This document shows positions 3,393 through 43,483 of a stretch of 64,000 bases of DNA, piece by piece. The first letter of the stretch is position 1, and every line of letters starts with the position of its first letter. Made by a program: the position numbers and the translations under genes. Origin of the DNA: Squalus acanthias. Lineage: Eukaryota. Under the pieces are notes generated by a model, which ran no database searches, had not been told where the DNA came from, and was given only the letters and a program-made list of their open reading frames with translations. The stretch covers positions 99,884,001 to 99,948,000 of the forward strand of contig CM059431.1 in the NCBI GenBank assembly GCA_030390025.1, read 5' to 3'.

Positions 3393-4156
3393 CTGTCAGC
3401 CGTGGCTCAGTGGGCAGCACACTCGCCTCTGAGGCAGAAGGTTGTGGGTTCAATCCCACTCCAGAGACTTAAGCATACAAGTCTAGACTGACACTCCATG
3501 TAGTACTGAGGGAGTGCTGCACTGTCGGAGGGACAGTACTGAGGGAGCGCTGCACTATCGGAGGGACAGTACTGAGGGAGCGCCGCACTGTCAGAGGGGC
3601 AGTACTGAGGGAGCGCCGCACTGTCGGAGGGGCAGTACTGAGGGAGCGCCGCACTGTCGGAGGGACAGTACTGAGGGAGCGCCGCACTGTCGGAGGGGCA
3701 GTACTGAGGGAGCGCCGCACTGTCGGAGGGGCAGTACTGAGGGAGCGCCGCACTGTCGGAGGGGCAGTACTGAGGGAACGCCGCACTGTCGGAGGGGCAG
3801 TACTGAGGGAGTGCCGCACTGTCGGAGGGGCAGTACTGAGGGAGTGCTGCACTGTCGGAGGGGTAGCACTGCGGGAACGCCGCACTGTCGGAGGGGCAGT
3901 ACTGAGGGAGCGCCGCACTGTCGGAGGGGCAGTACCGAGGGAGCGCCACACTGTCGGAGGGGTAGTACTGAGGGAGCGCCGCACTGTCGGAGGGGCAGTA
4001 CTGAGGGAGTGCCTCACTGTCGGAGGGGCAGTACTGAGTGAGCGCCGCACTGTCGGAGGGGCAGTACTGAGGGAGTGCCGCACTATCGGAGGGGCAGTAC
4101 TGAGGGAGTGTCGGAGGGGCAGTACTGAGGGAGCGCTACACTGTCAGAGGGGCAGT
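3393..4156 (+). mobile_element. tRNA-derived SINE (SacSINE1/DeuSINE-like) head plus 33-bp minisatellite (~20 units); 3' part missing
   Basis: A-box TGGCTCAGTGG and B-box GGTTCAATCCC, then tandem CAGTACTGAGGGAGCGCCGCACTGTCGGAGGGG from ~3501 to 4156. Confidence 0.85.
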
Positions 4157-4159
4157 AAG

Positions 4160-5934
4160 AGGCCTCCCCAGCAGACGAAGGCAGCGTGGCTGTAGGTAAC
4201 GAGGCTGTTAGTGGTGGATCGCACCTGGGCGCAATGCTGGAAGAGGTTCAATGATCTAGTAAGATCAGGAAGAGTGAGTATTAAGCCACACTTACCTTGA
4301 TGCTGTTGTGCCTGTCATCACATCCCCACCACTCTACATTGGCACCCCTACTCCTGCACAACGTTACTCACCCCAACATCCCTTGGACCTTCATCCATCC
4401 CTCTCTCTCTATTTACATTATCAGGTCACCATCTTACTATGCAGCCCTCACACTCAGACACAAAAGGAGACAACTTGGTATTGCCAACCCACTCCATCAA
4501 AGTCTCTCTGTAAAGCTCTATTCCATCACTCTCACTGAACCTTCTCTTCTTTCCCTCCTTGCAGGAAAAGATAGCCCACAAGGAGAGGGAGAGAACGGGA
4601 GGAGGGCCTCCACAAACCATGTCATATCTGACGAGTGCAGAGGAGGCAGCGCTGGAGATTGCTGGAGTGGTGGACGTTCTGGATGTGGGGAACGGAGAGA
4701 GGGGCTCAGTAGAAGAAGCTGGTGACAGAATGAATTTCCATACAATTGCATGCCTTTCATCATTGCCTCATATGGGGTGTGATGTCAAGACAAGATGAAT
4801 GCTCATCATGTGGATAATGGTATGTGTCTGCAGTAGACATCCTGTATATCTAACTGATGTCTTCACTCTCCCACAGGTCCATCAAGAGCCCCCCCCCCGC
4901 CCCCCCAATGTCCAGGAGCAACAGCAAGAAGACTCCTCAGAGGAGCCCCCTGCCTCTGAGGGTGCAGCATCACCTCAGACAACGCAACCCAGCACCAGCG
5001 CAGAGTCGCACTCCTCGGTGGGTATGTCGCGAGATAGAGTAGTGTTGTCACCTGGTGTCTCACAGATCACAACTGAGCAGCAGCAGATGGTGGAGACATT
5101 GACAGCAGTGGAGACTCCTTGTCGGAGGGTGCAGGACTCTCCTAGCTCTGCTCAGCTGCATGCAGACGCTGAGCCTCGGGCCATCCAGGAAGAGGGCGAT
5201 CCTGGAGCTGCAGGAACAAGTGCAGGAGGCTCTGACTGGTTTTGCGACCGCGGTGACTGAGTGTGCAGAGAATGGAGGAGTCCATCTCCAACATGAGCAA
5301 CACCGTGGCGCACTCACTGGCGACTGTAGCTCCCTCCATGGATAGGATGGCCACCTGCATGGAAGAGGCACGGCGCCAGTCGCAGGAGAACATGGTTTCT
5401 CTTCAAAATAGATGCTCATCTATGGAGGAGAGATGGGGAAAAATTGTGGAGAGAAACCAGAGGCTCATAGATGTCCTTTGTAGGAGTGATGTCAGTATAG
5501 AGGTGGGCCCTCATGGCCCCACTGATGTGCAGCAAGGTGCTCTCCAGCTACTTGCTAGCAGGGAAGTGCGGGTGGCCCATGAGAGGGATGATGGTGAGAG
5601 GGGACATGGAAGTGGGGGCTCTGCTGCAAGCACTCTCACTTTCACCCCCTTGCCAACCCCTCGGTCAGAGCCCCAGTTGCCTCCCCGGACAGTGATGGCC
5701 GAGTCTGCCCCTGCACAGCTGCAGGAGGAGCAGACTTTGGGGGGGCCATCACCATCTCCACAACCCAGAGGACGACCGCCAAAGGCATCTCGGCAGGCGC
5801 AGCAGGGAGGTGAGATGGCTGCCTCTACCTCTGCTGAAGCCACAGGGGTAGCACGACATAGAAGCACCTGGAAAAGAAAGATCCCACACAAACAGTCACT
5901 CAGGTGTCTTTTTCATTATCAATGTAATGTTTAG
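4160..5934 (+). pseudogene. Harbinger Myb/SANT-like DNA-binding protein gene, spliced and degenerate
   Basis: Exon ending at 4273 reads AWL*V...DRTWAQCWKRFNDLVRSGR|GTGAGT. Exon from 4565 (TTGCAG|) reads EKIAHKERERTGGGPP...LTSAEEAALEIAG. A further exon from 4877 (CCCACAG|) is acidic/Pro-rich and coiled-coil-like. It has an in-frame stop and frameshifts. Confidence 0.75.
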
Positions 5935-6152
5935 ATTATATTAAGTCTTTTTAATAAATCATGAATTTCTGACACTTTGACGTCTTTGCCGAATGTGTGT
6001 GATGTAATGGAAGTGGCAGAGTGAAGGGTCAGGGCTCATTTCACACCCAGCAATGGTAGTGAGAGTCAAAACAAGGGATGAATCATTGTTTGATTGCTGC
6101 ATGGTGTTGGTGTCGGGTGATGCAAACCTGCGAACGTGGGTGGCAGCCACAT

Positions 6153-7140
6153 GTCGGTGCTGGGTCCTCTGCTGTTTGTGATTTTTATCAATGACTTGGA
6201 GGAGGGGACTGAAGGGTGGATCAGTAAATTTGCTGATGACACCAAGATTGGTGGAGTAGTGGATGAGGTGGAGGGCTGTTGTAGGCTGCAAAGAGACATT
6301 GATAGGATGCAGAGCTGGGCCGAAAAATGGCAGATGGAATTTAACCCTGATAAGTGCGAGGTGATTCATTTTGGTAGGGCAAATTTGAATAAGGATTACA
6401 GGGTCAACGGCAGGGTTCTGAGGAACGTGGAGGAACAGAGGGATCTGGGGGTTCATATCCACAGATCTCTGAAGGTTGCCACTCAAGTGGATAGAGCAGT
6501 AAAGAAGGCCTATAGTGTGTTAGCGTTTATTAACAAGGGGTTTGAGTTTAAGAACCGTGAGGTTATGCTGCAACTGTACAGGACCTTGGTGAGACCACAT
6601 TTGGAATATTGTGTGCAGTTCTGGTCACCTCACTATGGGAAGGACGTGGAAGCATTGGAAAGAGTGCAAAGGAGATTTACCAGGATGCTGCCTGGTTTGG
6701 GGGGGAGGTCTTATGAGGAAAGATTGAGGGAGCTAGGGCTTTTCTCTTTAGAGCGGAGGAGGATGAGAGGCGACTTAATAGAGGTTTATAAGATGATGAG
6801 GGGGATAGATAGAGTGGATGTTCAGAGACTATTTCCTCGGGTGGATGTAGCTGTTACAAGGGGGCATAACTATAAGGTGCATGGGGGGAGATATAGAAGG
6901 GATGTCCGAGGTAGATTCTTTACTCAGAGAGTGGTTGGGGTGTGGAATGGACTGCCTGCTGTGATAGTGGAGTCGGACACTTTAGGAACTTTCAAGCGGT
7001 TATTGGATAAGCACATGGAACACACCAGAATGATAGGGAGTGGGATAGCTTGATCTTGGTTTCGGACAATGCTCGGCACAACATCGAGGGCCGAAGGGCC
7101 TGTACTGTGCTGTACTGTTCTATGTTCTATGTTCTATGTA
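6153..7140 (+). mobile_element. 5'-truncated CR1 LINE nested in the Harbinger element
   Basis: Uninterrupted RT ORF to 7053 (KFADD) and a (GTTCTAT)n tail. Confidence 0.95.
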
Positions 7141-7154
7141 TGAGCTGCATGAAG

Positions 7155-8991
7155 TTATTGCAATCTGCCATTGATAAGGGTATCCCTGGCGTGACGGGCA
7201 GCAACGTGCTCGCGTACTGGTCGCAATGGGACCGCCGGCTCGTCCAGGTGTTCCTCATCCTCATCACCAACCTGATGGTGACTCTCCTCGTCCTCCGATG
7301 AGGCTGTGCGCTCAGCGCCGTGTTCCTCATCCAGTGCTAATCCTCGCTGCTGTGCTGTGGTGTGCAGGGCGCAGTAGACCACGACCATTCGGGAGACCCT
7401 GGCTGGTGCATACTGAAGGGCTCCTCCAGATCTGTCGAGGCATCTGAAGCGCATTTTGAGCAAGCCTGTGGTCTGCTCGATGACACTTCTCGTGGAGATG
7501 TGGCTTTGATTATGACGTCGCTCAGGCTCATTTGTTGGCCTCCTCAAAGGTGTCATGAGCCACGTCTTCAGGGGATAGGCCTTGTCTCCAAGCTGCCAGC
7601 CGCCAAGACTGTTTGGCGGTGCGAAGAGCTGAGGGGCGGTGGAATGGCGCAGGATGTACGGGTCATGGCAGCTGCCAGGAAACTTGGAGCACACGTGGAT
7701 GATAACCTTCCGATGGTTGCAGACCAGCTGAACGTTGAGGGAGTGGAAGCCCTTGTGGTTAACAAATGCTATTGGGTTGTGATGGGGTCCCCGGATGGCC
7801 ACATGTGTGTAGTCAATGACTCCCTGCACCCGTGGGAAGCCAGCTGGAGTGGCAAAGCCAAGCACCCGCTCATTGACACCGGCTTCATCAGTGCCAACTT
7901 GTTAAAGAGAGCATCGGTGACCTGTGTGATGCATCTGTGGGCGGCCGACTGCGAGATGCCGCAAAGGTCTGCTGCTGATGCCTGGAAGAAGCCTGAGGCG
8001 AAGAAGTTGAGGGCGAGGGTGAGTTTGACAGCCACTGGTAAGGGGTGTCCAGAGTAAGAATAAAGATGTCTTACTGCAATTATATGGGGCCGTGGTGAGA
8101 CCACACCTGGAGTATTGTGTACAGTTTTGTTCTCCTTACCTAAGGAAGGATATACTTGCCATAGAGGGAGTGCAATGAAGGTTCACCAGACTGATTCCTG
8201 GGATGGGGGGATTGTCCTATGAGGAGAGATTGAGTAGACTAGGCCTATATTCTCTAGAGTTTAGAAGAATGAGAGGTGATCTCATTGAAACATACAAAAT
8301 TCTTACAGGGCTTGACAGGGTAGATGCAGGGAGGATGTTTCCACTGGCTGGAGAGTCTAGAACCAGGGGTCACAGTCTCAGAATAAGGGGTCGGCCATTT
8401 AGGACTGAGATGAGGAGAAATTTCTTCACTCAGAGGGTGGTGAATCTTTGGAATTCTCTACCCCAGAGGGCTGTGGAGGCTCAGTCATTGAGTATATTCA
8501 AGACAGAGATCGATAGATTTTTGGATATTAAGGGAATCAAGGGATATGGGGATAGTGCAGGAAAGTGGAGATGAGGTAGAGGATCAGCCATGATCTTACT
8601 GAATGGCGGAGCAGGCTCGAGGGGCCGAATGGCCTATTCCTGCTCCTAATTCATATGTTCTTATGTTCTTCCTCTGGGCTGCAGGTCTTTCTCCAGCAAA
8701 GCGCAAATGTCGGTGATGACCTGGCACGATCGCCTGAGCCTCTTCAGCACTGCTGCTCCGTCATGTTGAGGAAGCTCATCCTCTGCCTGTATGCCCTGTT
8801 TTGGGGGTATGGCCTCCGGCGCAGGGCAGCCCTGCGCTGATGCCCTCTGCCCTGTGCAGCATCAGGTGGTTGAGGAGAAGGTTGGCGCTCTTGTTGTTGC
8901 TGCTGCTCTGGTGTGGCTGGTTCTGCTGCTGCTGCGGCTGATCGTCATCAGATTCTGAGGACCAAGGTGAGAGAGCATAAATCGTGCCCAT
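7155..8991 (-). pseudogene. Harbinger (HARBI1-like, DDE_Tnp_4) transposase, disrupted
   Basis: [46 protein letters not shown] and LKMRFRCLD (7155..7865). HTH part [17 protein letters not shown]...[14 protein letters not shown] lies just upstream. The N-terminal part resumes at ~8671-8991 after a CR1 insertion; frameshifts present. Confidence 0.92.
8051..8670 (+). mobile_element. 5'-truncated CR1 LINE inserted into the Harbinger transposase
   Basis: ORF 8203..8574 is the CR1 RT C-terminus, with a (ATGTTCTT)n tail. Transposase coding sequence (..LQPRG / GHPLPV..) flanks both sides. Confidence 0.93.
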
Positions 8992-9731
8992 TCTGATGTT
9001 TACTTTGGCAGGTGGAGTTGAGATGACAGAAGCAATCTATCAAGGGTGAGATATGATGTTCCAAGGAGGTGACAGTGAATAGAGAGTTTACTGCAAACAC
9101 TTCCCAACTGAATAAAGCTGAAAAGTCTCTTCCAAGTAGTGAAGGCTCAAGCTTCTGAGATTGGAGAGTGAATGGCTATGAAGTGGTAGCTATTATACCA
9201 CTTTTGCAGCTGTTCAAAGCAATGGAGAGTTGTTTAAAACCCGACACACTTACCTGGCGTGATCCCCGAGCGACAGGAACCTCGTGGAAAACTTGGGAAA
9301 ATGGTTAGTACCTGGTAAAATACTGATTCAATTGCTTTAAACACCCTCTCAACTATCTGAATTGCCTGACCCACCGCTGAGTGCCGTGTCTGCGAGGCGC
9401 GGCCAGAGCCGACACTAGGGAAACTCACAAGGAGGCGGGTTCAGAGCGGGATACCGCCCCGCTGTCAATCTGTTTGATTTTGACAGCGGACCCGCCCTCT
9501 GAGCGCCGGCAAAATTCAGCCCTCTGTGTGTCGAAGTGTTTCCTAATTTCACTCATGAAAAGTCTGGCTCTAATTTTTAGACTATGCCCCCTAGTCCTAG
9601 GATCCCTAGAATAGATATGGGGAAAGAGCGGGGGAGTGGGACTAACTGGATTGCTCTTCAAAAGAGCCGGCGCAGACTTGATGGGCTGAATGGCCTCTTT
9701 CTGTTCTGTACTATTCTATGATTCTATGATT

Positions 9732-9950: not shown

Positions 9951-10245
9951 TCCAGCATTAATTGCTGTCTGAAGGTAGACTCGGTTGGATGCCAATCCTT
10001 TGCCCATCGGTTGTCACACTTTGCTCGAAGGAAGGAACATATTGCATCCGCATCCCACACAGTTGACATTTCCTCGGGAAATTCTACAAATTGTAAAATT
10101 CTGTTTTCCATCATGCTGGCAGAGCACGGATGAGAATCATCCGAGGGATTCTGGCTGAGCAACAATATTTCTGATATATTTTTTGTTAATATTAAAGCAA
10201 ATGACATGAATTGAATGTAACTGTACAAGGCGAGATGTCACTTAC

Positions 10246-10392
10246 CTCTTCCTGAACATGGCAATTTAGAATTGCCGCGACATTTTCTAGTACTCTCCTC
10301 AGCTGAAATGGGACATGACTCTGGATGCTCGCACATCCGGCCGGTCCATCCTTCCTTGCAGTCACATCTTCCACAGTTGCATTGCCCAAGAC
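10246..10392 (-). CDS. ITGBL1: ITGBL1 coding exon (equivalent to exon 7), 147 bp, phase 1-1
   Basis: Acceptor GAAACTAAAG (weak pyrimidine tract) and donor GTAAGT. Translates (G)[48 protein letters not shown](G). Confidence 0.93.
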
Positions 10393-10464
10393 CTTTAGTT
10401 TCAATCCAAAAGTCAGATATTAGAGTTAATTTTCCCCATCCAAATCAAGATCCTACACTAATCA

Positions 10465-17914: not shown

Positions 17915-18290
17915 CCAACAAAAAACAGAAAATGCTGTTAACACTCAGCGGGTCAGGCAGCATTGGTGGAGAGAGAAACAGAGTCAACGTTTCAGGTCGG
18001 TGACCTTTCGTCAGAACTGGAAAAAGTTGGAGATTGACAGATTTTAAGCAAATGCAGAGGCAGGGAAAGCGGGGAGAGGAAAGAACAAAAGGGAAGGTCT
18101 GTGATAGGGTGGAAGGCAGGAGAGATTCAATGACAAAAGGGAGGATGGTGCGAGGCAGAAGGGGGCGGGAATGGGACAAGGTGAAGATGGGTCTAGAGGA
18201 GGTGAAAATGGTGTCAGCAGCTTTGCAGAGAGTGATGGAAGCACAGAGAATCTATTGCCAACTTGTCTTAAAAGAAAAGTCTGCCACAAA
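17915..18290 (-). mobile_element. Penelope-like element 3' region
   Basis: Same 3' sequence as the GIY-YIG-containing copy at 32256-33405; carries a hammerhead motif. Confidence 0.8.
17982..18018 (-). ncRNA. Minimal type I hammerhead ribozyme motif
   Basis: Minus strand AGUU CUGACGA A AGGUC-ACC-GACCU GAAA CG U U GACU: catalytic boxes CUGANGA and GAAA, 5-bp stem II, palindromic ACGU at stem III, stem I AGUU/GACU. Confidence 0.75.
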
Positions 18291-18316
18291 TCTGTGCATT
18301 ATAGAGGTCTGCTTAC

Positions 18317-18457
18317 CTGAACAGAAATTATCGGAGTATCTGTCATATACAGCGTGGCAGTCTCTCTCATCGCACTCGCACGTCGCCCCATGAATGTCAC
18401 CATATTCCCCACTGGGATCCAGGTCGTAACATGTACACTCACCGCAAATGCAATTCC
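18317..18457 (-). CDS. ITGBL1: ITGBL1 coding exon (equivalent to exon 6), 141 bp, phase 1-1
   Basis: Acceptor GTTCTCTCTTCAG and donor GTAAGC. Translates (G)[46 protein letters not shown](G). Confidence 0.95.
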
Positions 18458-18705
18458 CTGAAGAGAGAACACAGCAGGGCTTGACAAGGGCGCTATTGTG
18501 CAGTCATCAAACTCGGCCGTGCTGTGTAATCCGTGCGCGGCTGGTGTAAATTATATTCATTATGTAGTCACTGGAAGTACAGTTCCTTTCTCATCCTCCC
18601 ATCGCAATCTCTTGTTGAAGTGGCACAGTTTTTCCGATGGCAAACCATCTGATCCCCAAATGATCCCTGAATGATATGATTTCTGGGGTAAACTTTACTC
18701 CCGTC

Positions 18706-23872: not shown

Positions 23873-24049
23873 CGAAATATTTCCATTTCGCAATACTGAG
23901 AGTCTTCAGGCGGCACAAGGTAATACCTGCTTTCTACTGCATTAGGTCGTGTCCCCATCGTACATAACCGAAGCAATCACAGCAGAAGTGGGCAAAGTAA
24001 TTTGCTCTAACTTCCAATCTTTGTCATTAACAATTTCTGAAAGACAGAC

Positions 24050-24190
24050 CTCTGTTGCTGCAGATCTTGCCATCTGGTGACGTGCATTTCCTCTTGCTCT
24101 CCCACGGGGTAATGTCACACTGGAACTCACATTTATCGCCATGCCAACCAGGCACACAGTAGCAGTTGCCGCAGTAACACTTTCCATGGC
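24050..24190 (-). CDS. ITGBL1: ITGBL1 coding exon (equivalent to exon 5), 141 bp, phase 1-1
   Basis: Acceptor TTTCTTGTGGTTTAAG and donor GTCTGT. Translates (G)[46 protein letters not shown](G). Confidence 0.95.
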
Positions 24191-24713
24191 CTTAAACCAC
24201 AAGAAATATCGGGTAAAGCAGTGAAATCACAATTTAAGAATATTTCAACATTTTTGTTTCACGGAATTATTTTTGGCAATTGCTCTTTGTGAGTAATTTC
24301 AAAGTAATTCGACACACTTCTTCCAGACAGATGCTATCTTCGGCTTATAAAATAATTTCTATTTCTTGCACAAACACCAGTTTCTAATGTCAAGAAATTC
24401 CCCACGCACAATCTAATTATTTCACAGAAGTGGGTAAAAAGATTTAATTAAAGATAAACCCTGATTCAGTCGTACAGTTGCCAGATAGCTAGCTGTCTGA
24501 AGTAAGTGACCTGTTTAGACGACAAGTGAAATGGATCGTGAATCTTAGTCGGAATCGAAATGGAATAGAATGCTTGTTTCATACATTGCACCAAAAGGAT
24601 TTTAAATAGTTCTGCAGAACCTCAAAAGATTTTCCTGAGAGCCCCACATCACCTATAGGAGTTTTGAAAAATATATTCTGCTTAATAAAGGGTTCCAGTC
24701 GATCATAGTCATA

Positions 24714-27135: not shown

Positions 27136-27418
27136 ACAACTAATCAGGACCTAATATTTGGAGGTGTTTTGTAGAGGAACGCAATTTTTAAAAGATTTCT
27201 TATTTGCAACAAACATAAGATAAACTTATCTTCAATAAGTTCAATCTCTTTCAATCTTCTGATTCTTTCAAAGCACGTAACAGCAGGAAGCCCGAGGCAA
27301 GTTTAGTAAAAATGTCACATGATAGTTTTAATGAACAGCACCATTGACGTTTCTATGGCTGTTTCGGTAAGTAGTGTGGAATGCAGAAACTGTTAACATG
27401 AAATATATTCGTGCATAC

Positions 27419-27541
27419 CTCCACAAATCTCGCCAGTTTCATCGTCAATGCAATCTTGGTCGTTACACTCACAAAACTTTCCATAAATCAGATTGTCATT
27501 TCCAGAACTGTTGCAGATGCACCTCCCGCAGTGACAGGTGC
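27419..27541 (-). CDS. ITGBL1: ITGBL1 coding exon (equivalent to exon 4), 123 bp, phase 1-1
   Basis: Acceptor TTTTTTCACATTTTCTAG and donor GTATGC. Translated by hand: (G)[40 protein letters not shown](G). Confidence 0.95.
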
Positions 27542-27774
27542 CTAGAAAATGTGAAAAAACCAGGGTCACTTAGTATCTGGCAATAGTTGACATTGCTTGC
27601 AAGAATTCCATTGTCTCTCCAGTCTTGCATCATAGGTTTGGTTTGTTTAATTATAAAATATATTAGCAATTAGAACACTATAACACGATCCTCAATGCAC
27701 TTCCTCCTCTCTGCATCCCCTCTGTGTTGTAATAAAGATTCATTGCACTGTCTCCGACTCTCTAACTCATTCTT

Positions 27775-30547: not shown

Positions 30548-32255
30548 GTAATTCCTAAAGGTGTTATTTCACTTTTGCAACATAAAGCTAGCAGCAATTC
30601 ATATTGCGGCCACCATAACAATCCTTTTAACATTCTCTGACAATTAACAAATCACGAGACAGATGTAAATATCAAAAGATTTATCAATCTTGCTGTGGCC
30701 TGCACAATCAGCTAAAAATGGCTGAACAAGTGAGAATCAGTCATGATTTAGCAACAAGACACAGAATTACACAGGTCCCGATATTTGCAAAGAGGCTGGG
30801 AGGGAGCGACATAGGTAGGACAAAGAAAGAGGTTCTGCTGAGAGAGTTTGAGCAGCTAGGGATTAAATTAAAAAACAGAAGAGAGCAGGGACTGCAGTGA
30901 GGATGAGCAAACTGACCACAGCACTATGGTACAGGGAGCCATTCAAGTGGGGGGAGCAAAAAGAAATGTGGTAGTGGTAGGGGACAGTATAGTTAGGGGG
31001 ATAGACACTGTTCTCTGCAGCCAAGAGCGTGAGTCCCGAAGGCTGTGTTGCCTGCCCAGTGCCAAGGTTAAAGACATCTCCTCTGGGCTGGAAAGGAACT
31101 TAGAATGGGAGGAGAAAGATCCAATTGTCATGGTCCATGTAGGTACCAACGACATAGGTAGGACAAAGAAAGAGGTTCTGCTGAGAGAGTTTGAGCAGCT
31201 AGGGACTAAATTAAAAAACAGAACCACAATGGTCATAATCTCTGGATTATTACCGGAGCCACGAGCAAATTGGCATAGGGTCAATAGGATCAGGGAGATG
31301 AATGCGTGGCTCAAAGATTGGTGTGCGAGAAGTGGGTTTTGATTCGTGGGGCACTGGCACCAGTACTGGGGAAAGAGAGAGCTGTTCCATTGGGACGGAC
31401 TACACCTGAACCATGCTGGGACCAGAGTTCTAGCGAATCGAATAATTAGGGAGGTAGATAGGGCTTTAAACTAAATAAGGTGGGGGGTCGGGAGGGTCCC
31501 GGTGGAGAGAAATCTAGAATGCTAAAGAGAAAAGACAGGAAGCAGTGCAGGAAAGTGATTGGGGTAAGGATAACCAGATTGTGTCAGGAAGGGACAGAGC
31601 GTACAAACAAAGGAGTGCACTAACAAATAGGGTCCGGTAAGAAAAAATGGCAATAAGACAAATAGGGCCATAGTACAAAAAAATGTTAAGATGTCTAAAA
31701 ATGTTAAAAAGACAAATCTAAAGGCACTGCTTCTGAATGCACAAAGCATTCGTAATAAGGTAGACAAATTAACAGCACAAATAGATGTAAACGGATGCGA
31801 TATAATTGTGATTACGGAGACATGGCTGCAGGGTGACCAAGGCTGGGAGCTGAATATCCAAGGATATTCGATATTTAGGAAGGACAGGCAAAAAGGAAAA
31901 GGAGGTGGGGTGGCCTTGTTAGTAAAGGATGAAATCAGAGCAATAGTGAGAAAGAATATTGGCTCAGAAAACATTGGTGGGAGTTGTCTATAGGCCTCCA
32001 AACAGTAGTGGTAATGTAGGGGATGGCATCAAACAGGAAATTAGAGATGCATGTAACAAGGGTACTACAGTAATCATGGGTGACTTTAATCTACATATAG
32101 ACTGGCCAAACCAAATTAGCAATAATATTGTGGAGGATGAATTCCTGGAGTGTGTACGAGATGTTTTTTAGACCAGTACGTTGAGGAGCCAACTAGGGAA
32201 CAGGCTATCCTAGATTGGGTATTGTGCAATGAGAAGGGATTAATTAATAATCTTG

Positions 32256-33405
32256 ATAGCAAAATACTGCAGATGCTGGAAATCCGAAATAACAACAGAA
32301 AACGCTGGAAAAACTCAGCAGGCGAGGCAGCATCCGTGGAGAGAGAAACAGAGTTAACGTTTCAGGTCGAAGACCTTTCATCAGAACTGGAGACAGCAGG
32401 AAATCAAATAGATTTAAAGCAAGGATAAAGGTGGGAAAAGGGGGAAGGGATAAAAGAACAAAAGGAGAGATTAAGAGACATTAAGAGACATTAAGAGATA
32501 TTCAAGGCAAGAGGTGGTGGTAATGTGACAGGTTAAGGCTGAAAGAAGTGTGAAATGCAATGGCAGAATGAAGGACAGCTGCCAGCTTCTAGGAGGGAAA
32601 AAAAAGGGGGGGGTGCAAATAAAAGGGTGGATGAGAAAATAAAATATAAATGTGATGGGGCTAAGGTTATGATCTAAAATTGTTGAACTCGATATTGAGT
32701 CCAGAGGGCTGTAGCGTGCCTAAACGAAAGATGAGGTGCTGTTCCTCGAGCTTACGCTGCGCTTCCGTGGAACAATGTAATAGGCCGAGGACGGTGAGGT
32801 CAGAGTGGGAGTGAAGCGGTGAATTAAAGTGACAGGCCACCGAGAGCTCGGGGTCACGCTTACGGACTGAACGGAGGTGTTCCGCAAAGCGGTCACCCAA
32901 TCTGCGTTTGGTCTCCCAATGTAGAGGAGACCACATCGTGAGCAGCGAATACAGTATACTAAATTGCAGGAAGTACAAGTAAATCGCTGTTTCACCTGGA
33001 AGGGGTGTTTGGGGCCCTGGACAGTGGGAAGAGGGGAGGTATAAGGGCATGTGTTGCATCTCCTGCGCTTGCACGGGAAGGTGCCGGGCGAAGGGGAAGG
33101 GGTGCTGGGGGTGGTAGAGGAGTGGACTAGGGTGTCGCGGAGGGAGCGGTCCCTGCGGAATGCTGAAAGGGGAGGTGAGGGGAAGATGCGTTTGGTGGTG
33201 GTATCACGCTGGAGGTAAAGGAAATGGCGGAGGATGATCCGTTGAATGTGGAGGCTGGTGCGGTGAAAGGTGAGGACAAGGGGAACTCTATCGTGGTTCC
33301 GGGAGGGAGGGGCAGGGGTGAGGGCAGAAGTGCGGGAGATAGAACGGACATGGTCGAGGGCCGTGTCGACCACGGGAGAGGAGAATTCTCGGTTGAGGAA
33401 AAAGG
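32256..33405 (-). mobile_element. Penelope-like retroelement (RT thumb, Cys linker, GIY-YIG endonuclease, 3' UTR), 5'-truncated
   Basis: RVPLVLTF, CKRRRCNTC, NLVYCIRCSRCGLLYIG / ETKRRLGDRFAEH...HFN...LGTLQPSGLN. Flanked by a 13-bp direct repeat ATTAATAATCTTG (32243-32255 / 33406-33418). Confidence 0.93.
32352..32388 (-). ncRNA. Minimal type I hammerhead ribozyme motif
   Basis: Minus strand AGUU CUGAUGA A AGGUC-UUC-GACCU GAAA CG U U AACU. Confidence 0.78.
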
Positions 33406-35021
33406 ATTAATAATCTTGTTGTGCGGGGTCCTTTAGGGAAGAGTGACCATAATATGATAGAATTCGCCCTTAAGATGGAAAGTGAAGAAGTCCAATCCGA
33501 AACTTGGGTCCTAAATCTAAACAAAGGAAACTATGAAGGTATGAGGAGTGAGTTGGCTATGATAGATTGGGGAGCTTCATTAAAAGGCATGACGGTGGAT
33601 AGGCAATGGCTAACATTTAAGGAATGAATGCATGAATTGCAACAGTTATACATTCCTTTCTAGCGCAAAAACACAAAAGGAAAAGCGGCCCAACCATGGC
33701 TAACAAAAGAAATTAAGGATAGTATTAGATCCAAAGAGGAGTCATATAAAGTTGACAGAAAAAGTAGCAAGCCTAAGGATTGGGAGCAGTTTAGAGTTCA
33801 GCAAAAAAGGACCAAGAGATTGATTAAGAGAGGAAAAATAGAGTATGAGAGTAAACTTGCAAGGAACATAAAAGTGGATTGTAAAAGCTTCTACAAGTAT
33901 GTAAAAAGAAAAAGATTAGTGAAGACAAATGTAGGTCCCTTACAGTCAGAAATGGGAGAATTTATAATGGGGAACAAGGAAATGGCAGAGCAATTAAACA
34001 AATACTTTGGTTCTGTCTTCACAGAAGAGGACACAAATAACTTTCCAGAAATGCTAGGGAACCAAGGGTCTAGTGAGAAGGAGGAAGTAAAGGAAATTAG
34101 TATTAGTAATAAAATAGTGCTGGAGAAATTAATGGGACTGAAAGCTGATAAATCTCCAGGGTCTGATAATCTGCATCCCAGAGTACTAAAAGAGGTAGCC
34201 ATGGAAATGGTGGATGCATTGGTTGTCATCTTCCAAAATTCTATAGATTATGGAACAGTTCCTGCAGATTGGAGGGTGGCAAATGTAACCCCACTATTTG
34301 AAAAAGGAGGGAGAAAGAAAACAGGGAACTACAGACAGGTTAGACTAACATCAGTAGTAGGGAAAATGCTAGAGTCTATTATAAAGGATGTGATAACAGG
34401 ACACTTAGAAAATATCAACGGGATTAGACAAAGTCAACATGGATTTATGAAAGGGAAATCGTGTTTGACAAACTGACTGGAGTTTTTTGAGGATGTAACT
34501 GGTAGAATAGATAAGGGAGAACCAGTGGATGTGGTGTATTTGGATTTTCAGAAGGCCTTTGATAAAGTCCCACATAAGAGGTTAGTGTGCAAAATTAAAG
34601 CACATGGGATTGGGGGTAATATACTGACATGGATTGAAAATTGGTTAACAGACAGGAAACAGAGAGTAGGAATAAATGGATCTTTTTCGGGGTGGCAGGT
34701 GGTGACTAGTGGGGTACCACAGGGATCAGTGCTTGGGCCCCAGCTATTCACAATATATATCAATGATTTGGATGAGGGAACCAAATGTAATATTTCCAGG
34801 TTTGCTGACGACACGAAACTAGGTGGGATTGAGTGTTATGAGGAGGATGCAAAGAGGCTTCAAGGCGATTTAGACAAGTTGAGTGAGTGGGTAAATACAT
34901 GGCAGATGCAGTATAACGTGGATAAATGTGAAGTTATCCACTTCGGTAGGAAAAACAGAAAGGCAGAGTATTATTTAAATGGTGATAGATTGGGAAATGT
35001 TGATGTACAGAGGGACCTGAG

Positions 35022-35492
35022 AGACAGCACCTCATCTTTCTATTAGGCGCTTTACAGCCTTCTGGACTCAACATCGAGTTCAACAATTTCAGGCTATAAA
35101 TTGGCCCCTGTAGTTCTTTCTTTTTTTCTCTCTTGTTTCCTCACATGGTAGCTGTTAATGTTGCTGCCATCATCATTCAAACCTCATCTCGAGCCATCTT
35201 TTGTTTCTTAACTTGTCCCAACCTCTCCTTTTGCCTCGCACCATCATCCCTTTTGTCAGTCAATCTCTCCGGCCTTCCATCCTATCACAGACCTTCCCTT
35301 TGTTCTATCCTCCCCTCCTCCCGGCCCTGCTTAAAAATCTCTCCTCCCTAACCTTTTCCAGTTCTGATGAAGGGTTCGACCCGAAACGTTGACTCTGTTT
35401 CTCTCCCCTCGATGCTGCCTGACCTGCTGAGTGTTTCCAGCACTTTCTGCTGTTATTTCAGATTTCCAGCATCCGCAGTATTTTGCTATTGT
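35022..35492 (+). mobile_element. Penelope-like element 3' end
   Basis: Starts with the QHLIF.LG.LQPSGLNIEFNNF coding remnant, then a 3' UTR ending CCAGCATCCGCAGTATTTTGCT. Confidence 0.85.
35360..35394 (+). ncRNA. Minimal type I hammerhead ribozyme motif
   Basis: AGUU CUGAUGA A GGGU-UCG-ACCC GAAA CG U U GACU. Confidence 0.75.
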
Positions 35493-42665: not shown

Positions 42666-42959
42666 CTAGGAGCAGCACAAGAGAAGCAAACAGGTAATAA
42701 ACTTTCCCTGTGTGATAAAGAGTCATTTCAAATGAAAAGTCTACAAAATGTTTTCAAAAGTTTAACAACAGTCAGCAAATTCGAGTTACATGACCTTGAT
42801 AATATGCTGTGGGTTACCAGTGTGCAAATGCTTAATGCAATTTGTGCTTAATGCATTTCTCTAAAATTTCTTTCTCTGCTTAAAAATAAATAGGTTTCAC
42901 ACCGCCACTAAAATGGAGGAGACAAGAATTTCAAACTAACGTAATCATTCTTAAGGTAA

Positions 42960-43483
42960 TCTCTGTCCTCGGCCTCCTACACTGTTCCAAAGAAGCTCAA
43001 CGTAAGCTCGAGGAACAGCACCTCATCTTTCGATTAGGCACTTTACAGCCTTCTGGACTCAACATCGAGTTCAACAATTTCAGACCAGAACCTCTGCTCC
43101 CATTTTTTCCAGACGGCAGCTGTTGATGATTCTGCCATTCCCATTTACACCTCCTCTTGATCCATCCTTTGTTTCTTTACTTGTCACATTACCATCTCCT
43201 TTTGCCTCGTACCATCATAACTTTTGTCTCTTAATCTCTCCTGCCTTCTGCCCTATCACAGACCTTCCCTTTTGTTCTTTCCTCCATTCCCCCCTTTCCC
43301 TGCCTCTGCACTTGCTTAAAACCTGTTACATCTCTAACATCTTCCAGTTCTGACGAAGGGTCATCGACCCGAACCGTTAACTCTGTTTCTCTCTCTCCAC
43401 AGATGCTGCCTGACCTGCTGAGTGTTTCCAGCATTTTCTGTTTTTATTTCAGATTTCCAGCATCCGCAGTGTTTTGCTTTTGC
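42960..43483 (+). mobile_element. Penelope-like element 3' end with a mutated hammerhead motif (43346-43382)
   Basis: LGLLHCSKEAQRKLEEQHLIFRLGTLQPSGLNIEFNNF remnant. Motif AGUU CUGACGA A GGGUC-AUC-GACCC GAAC CG U U AACU has GAAA changed to GAAC. Confidence 0.85.

What the first reader, a model, noticed from the sequence alone, without database searches (positions are those of the whole stretch)
32352..32388. Minimal hammerhead ribozymes in four Penelope 3' regions, with compensatory stem II changes
Seen: a CUGANGA(A)-stem II-GAAA-CG-U-U motif closed by AGUU/(A,G)ACU at 17982-18018 (-), 32352-32388 (-), 35360-35394 (+) and 43346-43382 (+). Stem II covaries (AGGUC/GACCU, GGGU/ACCC, GGGUC/GACCC) while the loop varies (ACC, UUC, UCG, AUC). 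Stem III is reduced to the palindrome ACGU. Known: Penelope-like elements carry minimal type I hammerheads that are thought to cleave as dimers through this palindrome. Inference: the two minus-strand copies are in the sense of the ITGBL1 pre-mRNA (introns following exons 3 and 6), so the host transcript carries two potentially pairing self-cleaving motifs. The 43346 copy has GAAA changed to GAAC and should be inactive.
Basis: partly seen in the sequence, partly recalled or inferred. Interest (0 to 1): 0.72.

Follow-up and report, generated by a model that had tools for sequence, protein, structure and literature searches.

The report
Penelope-element minimal hammerheads in shark ITGBL1
Four small hammerhead-ribozyme motifs sit in the tails of broken Penelope-like jumping-gene copies inside introns of a shark ITGBL1 gene; this is an ordinary example of an RNA class described in 2014, and the copies are most likely inert passengers there.

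Summary
All four motifs are at the stated coordinates. Three have a complete hammerhead core; the fourth has GAAC. They are not chance: 3 matches to a core pattern against 0.01 expected.

They belong to one huge repeat family: 31,909 strict matches in this 3.71-Gb genome, 0 for the reversed control. A near-complete copy elsewhere (L109) shows the Penelope-like layout: 197-nt direct repeats 3,196 nt apart, each with the motif, flanking a reverse transcriptase/GIY-YIG reading frame. This matches the minimal hammerheads of Penelope-like elements described by Cervera and de la Pena in 2014 (PMC4209133).

Three points need correcting:
- Rfam's hammerhead models do not detect any copy.
- Stem II covariation is limited to one base pair.
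- The base changed in the fourth copy is A15.1, not a core GAA base.

ITGBL1 is on the minus strand, so two copies are in sense. Cutting of the host transcript is unsupported. The double-hammerhead fold scores about -10 kcal/mol against -219 to -433 for pairing with the antisense copies. Such motifs occur about every 100 kb.

This scan already noted the same thing elsewhere in this genome. Known kind, low interest.

The parts
17982..18018 (-). Copy 1: minimal type I hammerhead motif with an intact core. Stem II AGGUC/GACCU, loop ACC. Predicted cut between 17986 (U17) and 17985. Sense to ITGBL1.
17921..18211 (-). PLE 3' fragment carrying copy 1, about 290 nt and 5'-truncated. Its 5' end lies about 104 nt downstream of the ITGBL1 exon that ends at 18315.
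   Evidence: (78-83% identity to copies 2-4); 17.9% non-CpG divergence from the family majority over about 160 nt
32352..32388 (-). Copy 2 (the flagged one): minimal hammerhead with an intact core. Stem II AGGUC/GACCU, loop UUC. Predicted cut between 32356 and 32355. Sense to ITGBL1.
32256..33406 (-). PLE fragment carrying copy 2. It holds the 3' tail, the 3' UTR and reading-frame remnants (32667-33203 and 32720-33406) with the zinc-finger-like and GIY-YIG region split over two frames.
35360..35394 (+). Copy 3: minimal hammerhead with an intact core. Stem II is 4 bp, GGGU/ACCC, loop UCG. Predicted cut between 35390 and 35391. Antisense to ITGBL1.
35024..35491 (+). PLE 3' fragment carrying copy 3. 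It is 5'-truncated and abuts a LINE-type reverse transcriptase fragment.
43346..43382 (+). Copy 4: hammerhead motif with A15.1 changed to C (43374). This breaks the A15.1-U16.1 pair and the ACGU palindrome. Antisense to ITGBL1.
42965..43482 (+). PLE 3' fragment carrying copy 4, with the last about 35 codons of the PLE frame upstream (42890-43126).
   Evidence: 5.5% non-CpG divergence from the family majority
18315..18458 (-). ITGBL1 exon, residues 232-279 of a shark ITGBL1.
   Evidence: 96% identity
42505..42675 (-). ITGBL1 exon, residues about 91-148. Further exons lie at 27417-27545, 24048-24191 and 10241-10393, all on the minus strand.
   Evidence: (EGF_2)
33664..35046 (+). Unrelated LINE-type reverse transcriptase fragment between copies 2 and 3.
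   Evidence: RVT_1 84.8 bits

Best explanation
The four motifs are minimal type I hammerheads (min-HHRs). They sit in the terminal repeat and 3' tail of one very abundant Penelope-like retrotransposon (PLE) family of this shark genome. All four copies in the window are old, 5'-truncated insertions into ITGBL1 introns.

How it works in the element (inferred from published work on other PLEs):
- A full-length or tandem copy puts two motifs on one transcript.
- Each motif lacks a helix III, so a single motif cannot fold into an active ribozyme.
- Two motifs pair through the ACGU palindrome and swap their 4-bp helix I strands, forming a double hammerhead.
- That structure cuts after GUU, slowly, and probably needs help from the element's own protein or chaperones.

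In the host gene (inferred): the copies are passengers. They are not expected to cut the ITGBL1 pre-mRNA at a meaningful rate. Copy 4 is additionally disabled by A15.1C.
For: Motif and family:
- The core fits at four sites and is not chance.
- One family gives 31,909 strict matches in 3.71 Gb, with 0 for the reversed control. A 20-mer just downstream of the motif gives 49,537 matches.

PLE layout:
- L109 has the motif twice in 197-nt direct repeats that are 99% alike and 3,196 nt apart. They flank a 930-aa frame with RVT_1 (24.2 bits) and GIY-YIG (20.3 bits) matches.
- The nearest ESM Atlas clusters carry HTH_animal, DUF8422, RVT_1 and GIY-YIG, with scores of 0.97.
- 19 of 89 sampled copies have a head-to-head inverted partner within 170 nt. 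Cervera and de la Pena report the same for PLEs.

Agreement with the published description (PMC4209133, main text parts 1-2 read):
- An unpaired base lies between positions 9 and 10.1. It is A in 52 of 52 copies.
- Positions 15.2-16.2 are palindromic.
- Helix I is 4 bp.
- The motif lies in the pLTR.
- That paper reports thousands of copies per vertebrate genome.

Conservation:
- Non-CpG divergence from the majority is 5.8% in motif positions 8-37, against about 21% in flanks further away.

Passenger status:
- Motifs occur every 91-116 kb.
- Only 24 of 89 copies sampled by a flanking anchor keep an intact motif, mostly through CpG decay.
- The window copies differ from the family majority by 5.5-17.9%.
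Against: - No cleavage data exist for this family.
- Rfam hammerhead models do not match.
- Nearest-neighbour energies disfavour the active double hammerhead: -9.7 to -10.5 kcal/mol for the intact copies 1 and 2, against -14.6 to -17.8 for two separate inactive hairpins. The monomer's best fold pairs UGAUG with CGUUA and buries the core. These energies ignore the tertiary contacts of the core.
- The pair next to the core is A-U or G.U in 98.6% of copies. The published consensus has G10.1-C11.1.
- The roughly 18 nt after the motif are as conserved as the motif itself (5.7% against 5.8%), so conservation is not specific to the ribozyme.
- The Pfam scores for RT and GIY-YIG are below the curated cut-offs.
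- The window holds 4 copies against 0.55 expected under a uniform spread (P = 0.0025). I read this as local repeat clustering but did not test it.
Confidence: 0.85

Rival explanations
1. One reading: the two sense copies (1 and 2) pair within the ITGBL1 pre-mRNA into a double hammerhead and cut it, so the motifs affect host expression.
For: Both copies have intact cores and are in sense to ITGBL1. Their palindromes and helix I strands are compatible. Conserved intronic hammerheads exist in amniotes (passages of PMC6155905 read).
Against: - The copies are 14.4 kb apart and in different introns, with three exons between them.
- The heterodimer double hammerhead scores -10.1 kcal/mol, against -16.2 for the two monomer folds and -20.9 for the best inactive dimer.
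- The same transcript carries antisense copies 3 and 4. Copy 3 is in the same intron, 3 kb upstream of copy 2. Predicted duplexes with them are -219 to -433 kcal/mol and cover the motif.
- Published PLE hammerheads cut poorly even as tandem dimers (PMC4209133). In the one element reconstituted in vitro they cut only with the element's protein, and no RNA-seq ends were seen at the site (passages of PMC11167929).
- Intact motifs occur every 91-116 kb on both strands, so most long genes carry some. Nothing singles out ITGBL1.
Confidence: 0.04
2. The conserved block is kept by the element for a reason other than self-cleavage. It could be a structure or binding site in the pLTR used for transcription, RNP assembly or priming of reverse transcription, with its hammerhead-like core largely vestigial in this family.
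For: - The motif and the next roughly 18 nt are equally conserved.
- The thermodynamically preferred fold is an extended hairpin that buries the core.
- 10.1-11.1 is mostly A-U or G.U, not G-C.
- There is no pile-up of 5' truncation points at the predicted cut among 89 copies (by eye).
- In the Anolis element, hammerhead mutants did not affect insertion in vitro (passages of PMC11167929).
Against: - Every core position of a hammerhead is present and nearly invariant, at 0-7.7% divergence per core position.
- A/C at the closing pair is rare: 0.4%, and 3.9-fold less C with A than with G.
- Hammerheads are found in PLEs of all eukaryotic groups, with active monomeric forms in fungi (PMC4209133).
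- C3/G8 rescue in the Anolis element shows true ribozyme chemistry (PMC11167929).
Confidence: 0.1
3. Chance resemblance: short conserved boxes that happen to look like a hammerhead.
For: The motif is short. Rfam models do not match.
Against: 0.01 matches expected against 3 found. The reversed-pattern control gives 0 against 31,909 genome-wide. All extra features of the published PLE min-HHR are present (PMC4209133).
Confidence: 0.01

Closest known systems
Minimal hammerhead ribozymes (min-HHRs) in the pLTRs of metazoan Penelope-like elements (Cervera and de la Pena 2014, PMC4209133; Lunse, Weinberg and Breaker 2016/17, seen only as a reference-list title in PMC6765202)
   Same: CUGANGA and GAAA boxes. 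An unpaired base between positions 9 and 10.1. No helix III; a palindromic 15.2-16.2 (ACGU) instead. A 4-bp helix I. Location in the direct terminal repeat of an RT/GIY-YIG element. Thousands of mostly solitary, truncated copies per vertebrate genome. Frequent close inverted pairs.
   Different: Helix II is 4-5 bp here; the Schistosoma families in the paper have 7-8 bp. The 10.1-11.1 pair is A-U or G.U in 98.6% of copies, whereas the paper stresses G-C. Copy number is higher (over 30,000 strict matches) than the 4,000-9,000 reported for coelacanth and Xenopus. My one search for a printed description of a shark PLE hammerhead ('Penelope-like', 'shark', 'ribozyme') gave one paper, a general review.
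Poseidon element of Anolis carolinensis (PAc), reconstituted in vitro (PMC11167929, passages read)
   Same: A vertebrate PLE with RT and GIY-YIG and a hammerhead in the pLTR. Genomic copies keep a 'tail' beyond the motif; here about 98 nt follow the predicted cut.
   Different: In PAc the reading frame starts inside the hammerhead. Here the frame lies downstream of the motif and tail (L109). Protein dependence of cleavage is shown for PAc only.
Conserved intronic hammerheads of amniotes (RECK, CTCL, DTNB; Rfam HH9 and HH10; passages of PMC6155905 read, Rfam names recalled)
   Same: A type I hammerhead in sense inside an intron of a host gene, thought to derive from retroelement hammerheads.
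   Different: Those are complete monomeric ribozymes with helix III and loop-loop contacts. They are single-copy and conserved at orthologous positions. The motifs here lack helix III, belong to a family of over 30,000 copies, are decaying, and match no Rfam hammerhead model.
Non-LTR retrozymes of animals (PMC7229834, listing and abstract only; preprint 10.64898/2026.07.22.740005, Results read)
   Same: Hammerhead-bearing non-coding units related to PLE pLTRs, including in one cartilaginous fish. Many genomic copies here are short units made of the motif plus tail.
   Different: Retrozymes are tandem arrays of short units with classical type I hammerheads, and they give circular RNAs. The copies here are solitary 3' ends of an autonomous-type element. 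The only tandem arrays I looked at are 1.68-kb duplications that merely contain a PLE fragment.

Membership tests
PLE minimal hammerhead (min-HHR) | Catalytic boxes C3-U4-G5-A6-N7-G8-A9 and G12-A13-A14, A15.1-U16.1, and H17 that is not G | tested here: met
   Copies 1-3 are complete, with H17 = U. Copy 4 has C15.1. Per-position divergence in 52 family copies is 0-7.7% at core positions.
PLE minimal hammerhead (min-HHR) | [quoted passage not shown] | tested here: met
   A in all four window copies and in 52 of 52 sampled copies.
PLE minimal hammerhead (min-HHR) | No helix III or loop 3; palindromic 15.2-16.2 that allows a double hammerhead | tested here: met
   ACGU in copies 1-3, CCGU in copy 4. 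A nested double-hammerhead structure can be written and evaluated.
PLE minimal hammerhead (min-HHR) | Conserved G10.1-C11.1 pair | tested here: not met
   G-C in copies 3 and 4, A-U in copies 1 and 2. Genome-wide: A-U 24,779, G.U 15,330, G-C 406, A/C 167 of 40,682. A pair is kept in 99.6%, but it is rarely G-C.
PLE minimal hammerhead (min-HHR) | Compensatory changes in the helices within a genome's families | tested here: inconclusive
   Only the closing pair of helix II varies in a paired way. C at 11.1 is 3.9-fold more frequent with G than with A (Fisher P = 2e-55). Counts are of copies, not independent events, and one side is a CpG site. The inner pairs of helix II and helix I show single-sided changes only.
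PLE minimal hammerhead (min-HHR) | Located in the terminal direct repeat (pLTR) of a PLE | tested here: met
   L109: the motif at 1329 and 4525 lies inside 197-nt direct repeats that flank the reading frame.
PLE minimal hammerhead (min-HHR) | Self-cleavage after H17, as a dimer | not testable with these tools
   The public runs were available only as contigs, which cannot show RNA ends.
Rfam hammerhead families (type I, II, III, HH9, HH10; names recalled) | Match to a curated covariance model | tested here: not met
   No match at the gathering score in the whole window. No hammerhead match at E<=10 in 76-241-nt stretches around copies 1, 2 and 3.
Penelope-like element (EN+ type) | A single reading frame with reverse transcriptase followed by a GIY-YIG endonuclease | tested here: inconclusive
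   L109 frame of 930 aa: RVT_1 24.2 bits (cut-off 29.6) and GIY-YIG 20.3 bits (cut-off 22.6), in that order. The nearest Atlas clusters carry RVT_1 and GIY-YIG on 52-63% of members. The order and motifs fit, but scores are under Pfam's thresholds and the endonuclease frame is broken in every copy I read.
Penelope-like element (EN+ type) | Direct terminal repeats from partial tandem insertion; inverted 5' partners; 5'-truncated copies | tested here: met
   L013; 19 of 89.
Domesticated intronic hammerhead | Single-copy motif conserved at the orthologous intron position across species | not tested
   No other elasmobranch genome was on hand. The family's copy number and decay argue against it.

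The most novel reading that the evidence does not exclude
Sense-oriented PLE minimal hammerheads in introns do cut host pre-mRNAs. They would do so when two copies meet in one nascent transcript, or when the element's protein is expressed. With tens of thousands of intact motifs, these shark retroelements would then impose or provide a genome-wide layer of intron cleavage, and ITGBL1 would be one target.
Probability: 0.03. Interest if true: 0.6.

Novelty: new member of a known kind. Interest (0 to 1): 0.12.

Why it matters
It matters little beyond annotation. It adds a cartilaginous-fish family, with very high copy number, to the known association of minimal hammerheads with Penelope-like elements. 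It also shows that Rfam-based screens miss this class entirely. The family could be a convenient substrate for asking whether PLE hammerheads need the element's protein. Its unusual A-U or G.U pair at 10.1-11.1 and its thousands of natural variants amount to a ready-made mutational series. The host-gene angle would matter only if intronic cleavage were shown.

Tried and rejected
- RNA evidence: one run search listed 24 runs, all kept as contigs. Most were marked 'RNA?' as a guess, and 2 are on record as RNA. I laid four of them on window 32150-32750. Three held family sequence and one held none. Contigs cannot show RNA ends, strand or level, and no table of molecule ends was produced. Contigs bridge the predicted cut. 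Summed depth is about 20-fold higher over 32255-32380 than upstream. That partly reflects the local divergence of copy 2 upstream of 32391 (loose ends there match the family sequence) and the excess of short 5'-truncated copies. Nothing can be concluded about cleavage or expression.
- Rfam: only chance-level hits to unrelated families.
- Pfam on the frame-shifted ORF remnants in the window: no family. A weak RVT_1 match on L013.
- Genomic footprint of cleavage: I looked for 5' truncation points piling up at the predicted cut. BLAST end points against one natural reference copy were distorted by subfamily differences, so I read the 89 sequences by eye. About 4 start near the cut, about 10-12 near the motif's first base, and about 7 in stem II. 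There is no peak at the cut.
- Arrays with 1.68-kb spacing of motifs (one search list) turned out to be tandem duplications that contain a PLE fragment, not tandem PLEs or retrozymes.
- Lunse et al. (PMC5785218) is not held. I know it only from its title in a reference list and a summary sentence in PMC6765202.
- Supplements of PMC4209133, which hold its alignments and accession table, were not opened. They may list cartilaginous fish.

Full report
**1. The observation**

The four sites read as described. On the strand given, each is AGUU-CUGAYGA-A-hairpin-GAAA-CGU-U-(A/G)ACU.

In standard hammerhead numbering:
- CUGAYGA is C3-A9.
- The next A is an extra unpaired base.
- The hairpin is helix II.
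- GAA is G12-A14.
- ACGU is 15.1-15.2-16.2-16.1.
- The following U is H17.
- AGUU and (A/G)ACU form a 4-bp helix I.

Predicted cuts lie between 17986 and 17985 (copy 1), 32356 and 32355 (copy 2) and 35390 and 35391 (copy 3). In copy 4 the changed base (43374) is A15.1. This removes the A15.1-U16.1 pair and the self-complementarity of ACGU.

The motif is not chance:
- The core pattern gives 3 matches against 0.01 expected, and 0 of 100 shuffles reach 3.
- The 14-mer CCAGTTCTGAYGAA is exact at exactly these four places.

**2. What carries the motifs**

The four sites lie in alignable repeats that are 78-88% alike pairwise:
- 17921-18211 (-)
- 32256 to about 33406 (-)
- 35024-35491 (+)
- 42965-43482 (+)

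Upstream of copies 2, 3 and 4 lies the end of a reading frame (...EAQRKLEEQHLIFRLGTLQPSGLNIEFNNFR). Upstream of copy 2 there are a further 228 codons with a CX2C-rich stretch and the words VYCIRCSRCGLLYIG / ETKRRLGDRFAEHL, split over two frames.

The genome that holds the window is 3.71 Gb and holds this family in very large numbers:
- 31,909 strict matches to the motif, 0 for the reversed control.
- 49,537 matches to a 20-mer just downstream.
- 84,792 first-look candidates for the 228-aa piece, of which 150 were scored.

One near-complete copy (L109) shows the architecture:
- The motif occurs twice on one strand, at 1329 and 4525.
- Both lie inside 197-nt direct repeats that are 99% alike and 3,196 nt apart.
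- The repeats flank a 930-aa frame with RVT_1 (24.2 bits) followed by GIY-YIG (20.3 bits). Both scores are under Pfam's cut-offs.

The nearest ESM Atlas clusters (0.97) carry HTH_animal, DUF8422, RVT_1 and GIY-YIG. L013 has an inverted motif at its 5' end. Of 89 sampled copies, 19 have a head-to-head partner within 170 nt.

This is the layout of an endonuclease-bearing Penelope-like element (PLE) with pseudo-LTRs. I did not place it in a named PLE clade.

**3. Comparison with print**

Cervera and de la Pena 2014 (PMC4209133; parts 1 and 2 of the main text read) describe exactly this:
- Minimal hammerheads without helix III in both pLTRs of metazoan PLEs.
- A base between positions 9 and 10.1, a palindromic 15.2-16.2, and a 4-5-bp helix I.
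- Thousands of mostly solitary copies in fish, coelacanth, Xenopus and reptiles.
- Close inverted pairs.
- No detectable cleavage as monomers and low cleavage as dimers or trimers.

A review (PMC6765202, passages read) summarises the dimer model and lists Lunse, Weinberg and Breaker as showing dimer cleavage. That paper itself is not held.

For the Anolis Poseidon element (PMC11167929, passages read):
- The hammerhead cut only when the element's protein was added.
- C3/G8 rescue worked.
- Hammerhead mutants did not affect insertion in vitro.
- No RNA-seq reads ended at the site.

A 2026 preprint (10.64898/2026.07.22.740005, Results read) links animal retrozymes to PLE pLTRs and samples one cartilaginous fish. 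My one search for a shark PLE hammerhead in print ('Penelope-like', 'shark', 'ribozyme') gave only a general review.

**4. The proposed checks**

*Rfam.* No hammerhead family matches. This holds at gathering scores over the window and at E<=10 in short stretches around copies 2, 3 and 1. The class is invisible to those models, as expected for a motif without helix III.

*Stem II covariation genome-wide.* With the rest of the motif fixed and a 3-nt loop, the pair next to the core is:

| Pair | Copies |
|---|---|
| A-U | 24,779 |
| G.U | 15,330 |
| G-C | 406 |
| A/C | 167 |

- A pair is possible in 99.6% of 40,682 copies.
- C at the 3' side is 3.9 times more frequent with G than with A (Fisher P = 2e-55).
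- These are copies, not independent events. The 3' base sits in a CpG. The G-C class is dominated by one loop variant, which points to a subfamily.

I also read an unbiased sample. It consisted of 90 places anchored on the downstream 20-mer. One duplicate was dropped, leaving 89. Of these, 52 extend at least 14 nt upstream of the motif. In those 52 copies the four inner pairs of helix II and the four pairs of helix I show only single-sided changes.

So the covariation is real but limited to one pair reached through an abundant G.U intermediate.

**5. Conservation and decay**

In the 52 copies, non-CpG divergence from the column majority is:

| Region | Divergence |
|---|---|
| Motif positions 8-37 | 5.8% |
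| 18 nt between motif and anchor | 5.7% |
| Flanks further away | about 21% |

- The motif is part of a conserved block but is not uniquely conserved.
- Positions 1-7 were part of my selection pattern and are not counted.
- Only 24 of 89 anchored copies (22 of the 52) keep the strict motif. Most losses are CpG transitions in ACGU and at N7-G8.
- The window copies differ from the majority by 17.9, 16.0, 14.2 and 5.5%.
- These figures point to neutral decay after insertion.

**6. The host gene**

The minus-strand frame at 18252-18503 matches ITGBL1 of sharks at 92-96% identity. All 24 hits are ITGBL1 or unnamed or partial forms that carry the same domain set. A shark ITGBL1 maps exon by exon on the minus strand at 42624-42505, 27545-27417, 24191-24048, 18458-18315 and 10393-10241.

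- Copies 1 and 2 are therefore in sense and copies 3 and 4 in antisense.
- Copies 2 and 3 share one intron.
- Copy 1 lies about 300 nt downstream of a 5' splice site.

**7. Would the host transcript be cut?**

Nearest-neighbour energies:

| Structure | Energy (kcal/mol) |
|---|---|
| Double hammerhead, copy 1 with copy 2 | -10.1 |
| The two monomer best folds together | -16.2 |
| Best inactive dimer | -20.9 |

- The monomer's best fold pairs UGAUG with CGUUA and buries the core.
- These numbers ignore tertiary contacts in the core, so they are a guide only.
- The same pre-mRNA contains antisense copies that are transcribed earlier. Predicted duplexes are -219 kcal/mol for copy 2 with antisense copy 3, which lies 3 kb away in the same intron. 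For the other three sense-antisense pairs they reach -433.
- The two sense copies are 14.4 kb and three exons apart.
- From memory (not checked here): only fast ribozymes placed in introns disturb splicing, because exons stay tethered to the polymerase.
- Motifs occur every 91-116 kb, so sense copies in long introns must be commonplace.
- The window has 4 against 0.55 expected under a uniform spread (P = 0.0025). I take this for local repeat clustering but did not test it.
- RNA data were uninformative (see Tried and rejected).

I put the host-cleavage reading at about 4%.

**8. Verdict**

The identification as PLE minimal hammerheads is right, and the kind has been in print since 2014. The covariation claim is weaker than stated, the Rfam test fails, and the host-gene inference is unsupported. 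I file this as a new member of a known kind, with low interest.

Noticed in passing
L009-L018 (loci), window 32900-32990 (-): The subfamily of window copy 2 carries a one-base frame break between the two halves of the GIY-YIG motif. It is shared by 9 of the 10 loci examined; L016 was not matched by my regex. A subfamily seems to have spread with a broken endonuclease frame, perhaps mobilised in trans. L109 reads through that point but changes frame about 25 codons later.
   Followed up: partly
89 copies on G000 contig C1 (L019-L108): 5' ends of truncated copies do not pile up at the predicted hammerhead cut (about 4 of 89). About 10-12 begin within a few bases of the motif's first base and about 7 in the 5' strand of stem II. 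Several head-to-head junctions lie inside the stem II hairpin. The cause is unexplained. These counts are by eye.
   Followed up: partly
L110 (G000:C1:6986500-6994500), L111 (G000:C1:7051500-7060500): Tandem repeats of about 1.68 kb, each containing a 640-nt PLE 3' fragment with an intact motif. The two arrays, 65 kb apart, look like copies of each other.
   Followed up: partly
window 33397-35046 (+): A LINE-type element fragment (RVT_1 84.8 bits) sits between PLE copies 2 and 3. Copy 3 abuts its 3' end, giving nested repeats inside one ITGBL1 intron.
   Followed up: no
window 32255-32391: In three public runs kept as contigs, summed contig depth over the motif-plus-tail part is about 20 times that of the element's upstream part. 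This fits a large excess of very short 3' fragments, but it is also affected by the local divergence of copy 2.
   Followed up: partly
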